DNA of 64,000 nucleotides from assembly GCF_054482595.1 (NCBI RefSeq), contig NZ_CM137008.1; one strand, 5' to 3'. The position numbers were made by a program. Shown here one piece after another: positions 38,601 to 41,600 of this stretch (positions are counted from its first letter, which is position 1; each line of letters starts with the position of its first letter).

Positions 38601-41600
38601 GGCGGGAATCCCCCACTGTGCATAGGCAACTCACGCTATGAACGCTTCAGCTTATCAATAGCGGAAGTTATAATTTCATTGTCATCAAACTTGTACAACA
38701 TAGTATCTAAAACAGGAAGTAGCGTTTTATCACCTAATTCACCCGCAGCTTCAATGATATCATCATAAACAGTATTTTTTTTTAACTCATCGCATAAAAC
38801 AGATAAAACCCTTTTATCTTTTCTGTAGGAAAGTCAGATTATTGCTTCAATACGGACTTCCTCATTTTTATCCTGAAGCATCTCCACAAAATAATCCCTA
38901 ATATCACTATTATCATATTTATTGATATTTATTGCAAATGCGGCCCAGTTTCTGACATCTCCATTTGGATCTTTTAACAGATTAATCAATAGTGGAATTG
39001 TTGCTTTATCATTGATAACAGAAATAGCAAATGCTGTAGCACGTCTGACATTAGTCGATTTATCAAAAGCAGTAATTTGAGATTGTTCTACTATTTTAGG
39101 TGAATAATTTGGGTTTTTCTTGCATCGCTGAGCCGTTGACTCGATTGCCGTAGCTCGAACGCAAGCGCTCTTATCATTCAATGCCATATTGTTCAAAATA
39201 TTAAAAACATTATCTTCGCATTTTTTGCAAATTTTTATTTGCCCGAGTATAAATGCTCCGATATCTCTACGGATATAATTTTTATCAGAGCAGAACTCAA
39301 TTGCCAATCTAACAGCGTCTTGCCCACCTCTTAACTGTAATACTCTGGCAGATGAAATCCTTTTCAAGGAATTGTGATCATCAAGTAAGCGAAATAATTC
39401 ATCATCATTTAGTTTCTTACATTGATTATATAAACCATACTCTTTACTTGCCTTTCTTTTCTGGTATGTATTTGACATTGCAGGAACCTCCACAAAGGCT
39501 ATCTTTTTTTATCGTTTGACTGTCTGGAGTCCTCCACCTACTCTGCCATCAGCGCACACGATGTTTGATTATCCTTACATACTTATTTTCCGTGGCCAAA
39601 ATTCAGAATTCTCCCATCATTTTTGCCTATTTCTATAATAAAAACCCCACCAGCAATTTGGTCTGAGTGAATGGTACCTTCAACAACCCAACTTGTTGTT
39701 AACTCAGTGATTTCGTATGGTTTTTCTTCTTCTGCGGCATCCTGTCCATAACGATTCTTAACATATATCTCAGCTAATTCCAATGCTATAGCTTTATTTT
39801 TAACCAAATTTCTAACGGTATATTTACCTTCACTTTCATACTTGCGCATTATTTTAATATTATTATTACACTGCGCCCATGTGTTGTATGTAAAAACAAA
39901 CAAAGATACAATGACACATTTCCTAAACAATATTTTTTTACATATTACCATGAACTCTGCAGACATTAGGTAATCCTTTTCCGTTTGTTATTTCCTTCCC
40001 GTGGTTATCTATTGCTTTAAAATTACCACTGGGCGTACCTAAATAAAATGACTTGATATTGTTATCTTTACTTTTAACTATTTTCTCATCTTTACCTGAA
40101 AATATTTCGTCCCAATATTCTCCATGACTATCTGCACCATGAGTATGATAAGCTGATACTTTCTCAGTACCATTAGGGCAAGGGCTATTGAATGGATATG
40201 ATCCTTTTCTTTCTCCTCGGTTAGGTGCTGTTGAGAAATATCTGCCACTATTATCCTTACATATTAAACCAGCGAACTCTTTATCTTCGCAAATAGATTG
40301 GCTATTTATTTTATTTAAGGCGTCATATGCGGTGCTATCTATAGAATCAAATTTATCTGGACCTATCATAGCGGATAGTGTGCCGCAAAGACCATTAGTA
40401 CATGCCCCCGATTTTGCATCCTCCCACATAGATAAACCCAGGGGGTCGATGTCTGATATCGGATTCAATTGATATCCATACAGGTTCCATCCCCCCTTCA
40501 GCCCAATCGGATCCTGAGTGATATACCTCCCCTGCAGCGGGTCATAATAGCGGTGGCGGTTGTAATACAGGCCGGACTCCTCATCATACTGCTGACCCGG
40601 CAGGCGGATGAGCTGCTGCAGCTGGTGCGGGTTCTCTTCATTCAGCAGGTTGCCCCATTCATCGTATTCTGCGCACCATTCTGTAGCCCCTTCCGTGCTG
40701 ATAAGCGCCAGCGGCAGGCCGCGATGGTCGCAGTGGTACAGGTGGATTTTTCGCGCCGGCGTGTACACCGGGTCCATCTGGTTTTGCATCTGCTCCACCG
40801 TCAGGCCGCACGATGCCAGCCAGCGGCGGCTTTCCTCACTCACCCGGTCAGCCAGGATTTCACTTTCCAGCCGGTCGAGCATCTGCACCAGCACCGGCGG
40901 GAACACCACACTGCCACCGTCTTCGCCGCCGGACTGCTGAAGGGCATCCGCCAGGCTGCGGCGCTGCGTTTTCGCCAGCTCACCGGTGGCAGTTTCGACC
41001 CTGATGAGTGGCGTGAAGCTCCCCGGCTGATAAATCGTCTGGATGCGGCTCCTGTCGTTCTGTATCGTGGTCAGCCGGTCGCCGTCCCAGCCGTACCAGG
41101 TCACTTGCGGTTTCCGTGACAGCGACATCCAGCCCGTCAGGTCCCGTTCACGCCGCCACACCCGTTTTGCCACCCTGCGGCCCAGCGGGTCGTAAAGATA
41201 GCGACTTTCGACCAGCGGCTCTGCATATTGTGTCCGCGTGTAGTGCACCAGCCGGTGCTGACTGTCGTAATGGTACCGGTGGGTGCGCTCATCATCCGTG
41301 CGGATAACCCCTTCCGGGATGAGGTCGGTTTTCTCCGTCAGCCTGCCGTGACGGTCATACCGGTAAAGATAGTGCGCGTCACGGGCGATACGGTTATCCG
41401 GCCACATGCTGAGGGCGCTGTCCGGGTGCAGCTCCGGGTCGGGCAGGCGGTTACCTGCCGGGTCTGTGGCATACGGGATATCAATGCCCAGGTTACATAT
41501 AATAATAAGAGCAATTAACTTAATTTATTTGTTTATAATGCGCTTACTTAATACAAACCATTGAATATACCCTCCTGACAGAAAATAAAGCCATATTATT

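What the first reader, a model, noticed from the sequence alone, without database searches (positions are those of the whole stretch)
38636..39478. yibA carries a premature TGA inside an otherwise intact frame
The HEAT-repeat protein reads IEAII then TGA (38831..38833), after which the same frame continues (LSYRKDKRVLSV…KLKRS) for about 65 codons to a stop at 38636. A single G-to-T change in a Gly codon would explain it. Together with the adhesin and lipoprotein lesions this makes three accessory genes in 15 kb hit by point mutations while the backbone is intact.
Basis: partly seen in the sequence, partly recalled or inferred. Interest (0 to 1): 0.35.

Follow-up and report, generated by a model that had tools for sequence, protein, structure and literature searches.

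The report
Decaying orphan Rhs immunity gene yibA
The premature stop in yibA is a real, inherited G-to-T nonsense mutation, already flagged as a pseudogene in public annotations, in an antitoxin-like "immunity" gene whose partner toxin this E. coli lineage has lost, so it is ordinary gene decay.

Summary
The gene (ATG 39478, natural TAG 38636..38638) is E. coli yibA. It differs from K-12 yibA at 3 of 843 nt, one being GGA to TGA (G215*). Of about 2,940 complete E. coli genomes carrying this region, 2,906 have GGA and 20 have TGA. NCBI's PGAP pipeline marks yibA as a pseudogene in all four TGA records inspected ("internal stop"). It is not a sequencing error: 20 separate complete assemblies carry it, and the exact 214-aa product is on 189 contigs. 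YibA is the HEAT-repeat immunity protein for the RhsA C-terminal toxin (Ntox34). In this window that toxin region has been replaced by an RhsB-CT/yhhH module, and none of the 20 TGA genomes has RhsA-CT anywhere. The gene is decaying: two TGA sub-lineages carry a second nonsense mutation, and other genomes have an A9-to-A8 frameshift (209 genomes, 8 of 8 sampled toxin-less) or IS1 insertions. There is no SECIS element, conserved UGA or restart. Verdict: an ordinary, already-annotated pseudogene of an orphaned immunity gene; low interest.

The parts
38636..39478 (-). yibA pseudogene (full 843-nt frame including natural TAG stop at 38636..38638); HEAT-repeat immunity protein of the RhsA/Ntox34 toxin
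   Evidence: Translation. 3 nt differences from K-12 yibA in 843 nt. Matches PDB 1OYZ 'Hypothetical protein yibA', E=1.7e-180. Pfam HEAT_2 E=1.7e-27. PGAP annotates it 'yibA, pseudogene, internal stop' in the near-identical genome XH990.
38834..38836 (-). Premature TGA, codon 215 (ancestral GGA, Gly); the next base is C
   Evidence: T allele exact in 20 genomes, G allele exact in 2,906.
38837..39478 (-). Remaining 5' ORF, 214 codons (a GGAGG ribosome-binding site lies upstream of the ATG)
   Evidence: The exact 214-aa protein is on 189 contigs.
38639..38833 (-). Untranslated 3' remnant, 65 still-open codons (residues 216-280); first in-frame start-like codon is codon 260
38775..38783 (-). A9 homopolymer inside yibA (intact here); site of an independent A9-to-A8 frameshift in 209 other genomes
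39479..39530 (-). Last 52 nt shared with K-12 upstream of yibA (about 32 nt of the rhsA 3' end plus a 20-nt spacer). Homology to the K-12 rhsA locus stops here, so the RhsA-CT (Ntox34) coding region is missing.
   Evidence: blastn of window against the K-12 locus: window 39530..38166 matches K-12 locus 6334..7698; K-12 5976..6333 has no match. The same breakpoint appears in other genomes.
39583..39966 (-). yhhH, an Imm-NTF2-2 immunity gene of the RhsB-CT module that now lies directly upstream of yibA
   Evidence: Pfam PF15631 E=2.5e-26.
39938..41494 (-). Orphan rhsB fragment (core remnant plus RhsB-CT), lacking its N-terminus
   Evidence: PGAP annotation of XH990 mapped onto the window; core homology 41479..40485.
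41525..46035 (-). Main rhs gene with an RhsC-type C-terminus (41851..46035) and its immunity gene ybfB (41525..41851)
   Evidence: XH990 annotation mapped onto the window; core homology to K-12 rhsA at 97.7%.
37701..38606 (-). Downstream orphan rhs fragment (core remnant plus another CT)
37174..37695 (-). Imm57 immunity gene (intact)
   Evidence: Pfam PF15596 E=1.3e-47; annotation.

Best explanation
yibA encodes the HEAT-repeat immunity (antidote) protein that neutralises the Ntox34 toxin domain at the C-terminus of RhsA. In this lineage, recombination in the Rhs toxin/immunity array replaced the RhsA-CT coding region with an RhsB-CT/yhhH module (and later an RhsC-CT/ybfB module). That left yibA as an orphan immunity gene with no cognate toxin anywhere in the genome. 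It was then no longer needed for self-protection. A GGA-to-TGA transversion at codon 215 truncated the protein from 280 to 214 aa, removing roughly the last four helices of the alpha-solenoid, and was inherited by a widespread lineage. The gene is now a neutrally decaying pseudogene. Shown directly: the mutation, its frequency, absence of the toxin, and the secondary lesions. Inferred: that loss of the toxin relaxed selection, and that the truncated product is non-functional.
For: Identity and lesion: the window differs from K-12 yibA at 3 of 843 nt, including G215*. GGA is exact in 2,906 genomes and TGA in 20. PGAP marks yibA 'internal stop' pseudogene in all four TGA records inspected. Function: Poole et al. 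2011 (PMC3150448) report that the RhsA C-terminal region is growth-inhibitory and is neutralised by yibA. K-12 RhsA-CT is Pfam Ntox34, E=6e-44. Zhang et al. 2012 (PMC3482391) list Imm-HEAT as the Ntox34 immunity partner on RHS proteins. Toxin loss: homology to K-12 begins only 52 nt upstream of the yibA ATG. In the chimeric-query test all 20 TGA genomes show one place (no RhsA-CT anywhere), while K-12 controls show two. Decay: TGA sub-lineages ES5 and PS10-3 carry a second nonsense mutation (S126*, R8*). Independent lesions elsewhere: the A9-to-A8 frameshift is exact in 209 of 2,943 genomes and sits on at least 6 haplotypes. 8 of 8 sampled A8 genomes lack an intact RhsA-CT. Only 4-5 A8 genomes were seen among those with the RhsA-CT junction, about 1,738 in all. 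55989 and other strains have IS1 insertions. Recoding excluded: no SECIS or other Rfam hit, the local hairpin is no better than shuffles (z=-0.76), and there is no nearby restart codon.
Against: About 1,200 genomes carry yibA without the adjoining RhsA-CT (2,940 minus 1,738). Counting the lesions I could count (209 A8, 20 TGA), most of these still appear to have an open frame. So orphan yibA is not decaying quickly everywhere, and it may be kept for protection against RhsA-armed competitors. Counts of genomes are not counts of independent events, because lineages are clonal, so the toxin-less/lesion association is not a formal statistic. Some A8 calls may be homopolymer assembly errors. Loss of function of the 214-aa product was not tested. 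The helix map comes from a low-confidence single-sequence model (pLDDT 59.7).
Confidence: 0.85

Rival explanations
1. Selected loss: inactivating yibA is advantageous once the toxin is gone (for example, it removes a costly or interfering protein). The TGA, the recurrent A8 frameshift and the IS1 insertions would then be convergent adaptive knock-outs rather than neutral decay.
For: Several independent lesion types hit the same small gene, and A8 occurs on at least 6 haplotypes.
Against: An A9 run is an intrinsic slippage hotspot, so recurrence needs no selection. Most toxin-less genomes apparently keep an open frame. Second stops accumulating after the first is what neutrality predicts. No cost of YibA is known.
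Confidence: 0.08
2. Still functional: either the 214-aa truncated HEAT protein keeps binding activity, or the leaky UGA-C context allows a few percent read-through (Trp at position 215), giving enough full-length immunity protein.
For: The stop is TGA followed by C. From general knowledge (not tested here), this is the weakest termination context in E. coli. The downstream frame is still fully open. Pfam still recognises HEAT repeats in the 214-aa product.
Against: Sub-lineages have acquired earlier stops at codons 8 and 126, which would not be tolerated if the product mattered. The cognate toxin is absent. UGA is not conserved: 2,906 genomes have GGA. The truncation removes about four helices of a repeat solenoid (low confidence).
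Confidence: 0.05
3. Artefact or programmed recoding: the TGA is a sequencing or assembly error, or a selenocysteine codon (selA and selB lie a few kb away).
For: None beyond the coincidental proximity of selAB.
Against: 20 separate complete assemblies and 189 contigs carry the identical allele. There is no SECIS or any Rfam match and no stable hairpin. The ancestral codon is Gly, not Cys or Sec.
Confidence: 0.01

Closest known systems
E. coli K-12 YibA (b3594; PDB 1OYZ), the RhsA-associated antidote / Imm-HEAT immunity protein
   Same: Orthologous gene at the same chromosomal locus, between yibF and yibH/mtlA. 840 of 843 nt are identical, with the same HEAT-repeat architecture.
   Different: It is truncated at codon 215 by GGA to TGA. 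It is preceded by yhhH rather than the RhsA Ntox34 toxin domain, which is absent from the genome.
Orphan toxin/immunity modules of Rhs and CDI loci (Poole et al. 2011, PMC3150448)
   Same: It lies in an array of displaced rhs-CT fragments and immunity genes downstream of a main rhs gene.
   Different: Typical orphan modules keep the CT fragment together with its immunity gene. Here only the immunity gene remains (plus about 32 nt of the toxin's 3' end), and it is inactivated.
Other yibA pseudogene alleles in E. coli (A9-to-A8 frameshift; IS1 insertions, e.g. strain 55989)
   Same: The same gene is inactivated, overwhelmingly in genomes lacking an intact RhsA-CT.
   Different: The mutational mechanism differs (point nonsense versus slippage or IS insertion). 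The TGA allele is much rarer: 20 genomes versus 209.

Membership tests
YibA / Imm-HEAT immunity protein of Ntox34 Rhs toxins | HEAT-repeat all-alpha protein orthologous to K-12 YibA | tested here: met
   Pfam HEAT_2 E=1.7e-27; 1OYZ E=1.7e-180; 3 nt differences from K-12.
YibA / Imm-HEAT immunity protein of Ntox34 Rhs toxins | Encoded immediately downstream of an Rhs C-terminal Ntox34 toxin domain | tested here: not met
   In K-12 yibA is 20 bp after rhsA, whose CT is Ntox34. In the window the CT is replaced by RhsB-CT/yhhH, and it is absent genome-wide in all 20 TGA genomes.
YibA / Imm-HEAT immunity protein of Ntox34 Rhs toxins | Intact full-length reading frame (280 aa) | tested here: not met
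   TGA at codon 215.
YibA / Imm-HEAT immunity protein of Ntox34 Rhs toxins | Neutralises RhsA-CT toxicity | not testable with these tools
   Reported for K-12 yibA by Hill and colleagues, as cited in PMC3150448. Not tested for the truncated allele.
Nonsense-mutation pseudogene | In-frame stop where intact orthologues have a sense codon, with the rest of the frame preserved | tested here: met
   GGA in 2,906 genomes against TGA in 20; one internal stop only.
Nonsense-mutation pseudogene | Real allele, not a sequencing error | tested here: met
   20 separate complete assemblies and 189 contigs carry the exact product.
Nonsense-mutation pseudogene | Signs of relaxed constraint after the first lesion | tested here: met
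   Second nonsense mutations S126* (ES5) and R8* (PS10-3) on the TGA background.
Programmed UGA recoding (selenocysteine or read-through) | SECIS-like element downstream, and UGA conserved among orthologues | tested here: not met
   No Rfam hit; hairpin z=-0.76; UGA in 0.7% of genomes only.

The most novel reading that the evidence does not exclude
The truncated or read-through YibA (UGA-C is a leaky stop context) still supplies partial immunity or has a new binding role. The lineage would then not be fully susceptible to RhsA/Ntox34-armed competitors despite the annotated pseudogene.
Probability: 0.04. Interest if true: 0.3.

Novelty: already known. Interest (0 to 1): 0.08.

Why it matters
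It matters little on its own: this is an ordinary pseudogene that RefSeq already flags. The modest wider point concerns the pattern across 5,426 complete E. coli genomes. Lesions in yibA (nonsense, homopolymer frameshift, IS1) are found almost only in genomes that lack an intact cognate RhsA/Ntox34 toxin. That is a clean natural example of an immunity gene decaying after its toxin is displaced from a polymorphic-toxin array. It predicts that this lineage is sensitive to RhsA-armed competitors.

Tried and rejected
1. A 55-nt megablast query was meant to seed only on the T allele. I used the identity bands for allele counts instead.
2. Selenocysteine or other recoding was rejected: no Rfam hit, no stable hairpin, and UGA is not conserved.
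3. Translational restart producing a C-terminal fragment was rejected: the first in-frame start-like codon after the stop is codon 260.
4. Sequencing error was rejected.
5. A single-sequence AlphaFold model had low confidence (pLDDT 59.7), so I used it only for approximate helix positions and ran no fold search.
6. A literature search for papers on decay of orphan Rhs immunity genes found nothing specific to yibA.
7. I did not enumerate pseudogene status for all of the roughly 2,940 yibA genes. The tools return counts and at most 60 rows, so the lesion-versus-toxin association rests on counts, a sample of 8 and one top-40 list.

Full report
**Observation.** Reading the minus strand from ATG 39478, the frame runs for 214 sense codons (…EEVRIEAII) and then meets TGA. 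It continues open for 65 more codons (LSYRKDKRVLSV…KLKRS) to TAG at 38636..38638. The TGA occupies 38834..38836. This is the only internal stop in the frame, against 17 and 46 in the other two frames. Only 0.25% of shuffles of the AT-rich 65-codon tail remain open (the gene is 33.5% GC, the window 49.7%). The open tail is therefore a recently silenced coding sequence, not chance.

**Identity and ancestral state.** The gene is E. coli yibA.
- It differs from K-12 yibA at 3 of 843 nt (N124I, Y196C and G215*, GGA to TGA).
- With Gly restored, the protein matches PDB 1OYZ ('Hypothetical protein yibA', 280 aa) end to end, E=1.7e-180.
- It carries Pfam HEAT repeats.
- Among 5,426 complete E. coli genomes, about 2,940 contain this part of yibA. 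The 55-mer with G is exact in 2,906 and the 55-mer with T is exact in 20.

**Not an error, and already annotated.** The 20 TGA genomes are separate complete assemblies, isolated from humans, pigs, chickens, a duck, river water and an urban waste bin. The window is 99.998% identical over 40 kb to one of them, strain XH990. The exact 214-aa product is recorded on 189 contigs, and the 219-aa version from the upstream GTG on 130, in the large protein collection. PGAP labels the gene 'yibA … pseudogene, internal stop' in XH990, O157:H16 Santai, ES5 and PS10-3.

**What the gene is for.** Poole et al. 2011 (PMC3150448) summarise work from Hill and colleagues. The C-terminal region of K-12 RhsA blocks recovery of stationary-phase cells, and yibA, the ORF immediately downstream, neutralises it. 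The K-12 RhsA C-terminus is a Pfam Ntox34 domain, E=6e-44. Zhang et al. 2012 (PMC3482391) list Imm-HEAT as the immunity partner of Ntox34 on RHS proteins. YibA is therefore the immunity (antidote) protein of an Rhs polymorphic toxin.

**Context in the window.** The locus sits at the rhsA chromosomal position, between yibF and yibH/mtlA. Reading the minus strand, it contains:
- a main rhs gene with an RhsC-type C-terminus, followed by ybfB;
- an orphan rhsB fragment, followed by yhhH (Imm-NTF2-2);
- yibA;
- another orphan rhs fragment;
- an Imm57 gene.

In K-12, yibA starts 20 bp after rhsA. In the window, homology to K-12 begins only 52 nt upstream of the yibA ATG (window 39530). The roughly 360-nt Ntox34-coding segment has no counterpart.

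I tested whether the toxin might be elsewhere in these genomes with a chimeric query. It combined a single-copy yibA 3' anchor carrying the TGA with the reverse-complemented RhsA-CT. All 20 TGA genomes gave one place (the anchor only), while K-12 and other paired genomes gave two. At megablast sensitivity the cognate toxin is absent from the whole lineage, so yibA here is an orphan immunity gene.

**Evidence that it is decaying.**
- Two TGA sub-lineages have a second, independent nonsense mutation: ES5 has S126* (TCA to TAA) and PS10-3 has R8* (AGA to TGA).
- Other genomes have inactivated yibA differently. A 1-bp deletion in the A9 run (window 38775..38783) is exact in 209 of 2,943 genomes and sits on at least six yibA haplotypes.
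- IS1 has inserted in strain 55989 and several other strains.
- The RhsA-CT–yibA junction is intact in 1,738 genomes, so about 1,200 carry toxin-less yibA. In the sampled records the breakpoint is the same as in the window.
- All 8 diverse A8 genomes I sampled lack an intact toxin. Seven have rhsB–yhhH upstream, and in PCN061 the Ntox34 region is itself cut by IS1.
- A query joining the RhsA-CT 3' end to an A8 yibA found only 4-5 such genomes at the top of the ranking.

Lesions are therefore strongly concentrated in toxin-less genomes. The caveat is that genome counts are not independent events, and some A8 calls could be homopolymer errors.

**Alternatives.**
- *Programmed recoding* is excluded. 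There is no SECIS or any other Rfam match. The small AU-rich hairpin after the stop is no more stable than shuffled sequence (z=-0.76). UGA is present in only 0.7% of genomes.
- *Restart* is implausible, because the next in-frame start-like codon is codon 260.
- *Read-through* at the UGA-C context (leaky, from general knowledge) could yield a trace of full-length protein. The later upstream stops in sub-lineages argue that nothing maintains the frame.
- *Adaptive loss* cannot be formally excluded. It is unnecessary given a slippage-prone A9 run and the absence of the toxin.

A low-confidence single-sequence model (pLDDT 59.7) places residue 215 near the end of one helix with four helices after it. 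The truncation would thus remove roughly the last two repeats of the solenoid. The crystal structure 1OYZ would give the exact mapping.

**The 'three lesions in 15 kb' remark.** The other two lesions exist. A SadB/YajI-family (DUF3251) lipoprotein gene at 28705..29388 has TAA at codon 37. The ESPR/YadA adhesin at 25445..28661 is split into at least three ORFs. However, the lipoprotein stop is exact in only 13 of 1,226 genomes, against 20 for the yibA TGA. This fits stepwise accumulation of pseudogenes in accessory genes, which is unremarkable, though I did not check that the 13 genomes fall within the 20.

**Verdict.** This is an ordinary nonsense pseudogene, already annotated as such, of an Rhs immunity gene that lost its cognate toxin. 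Novelty: already known. Interest: low.

Noticed in passing
window 38775..38783 (-): The A9 homopolymer inside yibA is intact here. An A8 frameshift allele is exact in 209 of 2,943 complete E. coli genomes, on at least 6 haplotypes, and 8 of 8 sampled are in toxin-less contexts. It is about ten times commoner than the TGA allele.
   Followed up: yes
window 39420..39720 (-): The yhhH–yibA 5' junction occurs in 2,968 genomes, often at two places per genome (also at the rhsB locus). The join between the RhsB-CT/yhhH module and yibA therefore seems old and has been copied between rhs loci.
   Followed up: partly
window 28705..29388 (-); stop at 29278..29280: A SadB/YajI-family (DUF3251) lipoprotein gene has TAA at codon 37. 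The exact allele is in only 13 of the 1,226 genomes that carry the gene, so it is probably younger than the yibA TGA.
   Followed up: partly
window 25445..28661 (-): The ESPR/YadA-family trimeric autotransporter adhesin is broken into at least three ORFs. PGAP annotates it as frameshifted or incomplete in XH990.
   Followed up: no
window 37174..37695 (-): The Imm57 immunity gene is intact here, but it is annotated as frameshifted in a K-12 MG1655 derivative. Different strains have lost different immunity genes in this array.
   Followed up: no
window 38139..38320 compared with locus L005 7698..8700: The K-12 yibJ-CT/yibG (Sel1) module is absent from the window. The rhs core fragment after yibA runs straight into the CT that precedes Imm57, consistent with a deletion between repeated core fragments.
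   Followed up: partly
window 41525..46035 (-); loci L002, L003: The main rhs gene at the rhsA position carries an RhsC-type CT plus ybfB. Relatives with the same TGA (ES5, PS10-3) have a full rhsB instead. The TGA therefore predates the latest CT swap, or it moved by recombination.
   Followed up: partly
loci L014 (PCN061) and hits H30, H235-H238: IS1 insertions recur in the RhsA-CT/yibA segment in several unrelated strains (55989, PCN061, S171-1, EC20-72C-1, AST205, 2018-11-1BCC).
   Followed up: no
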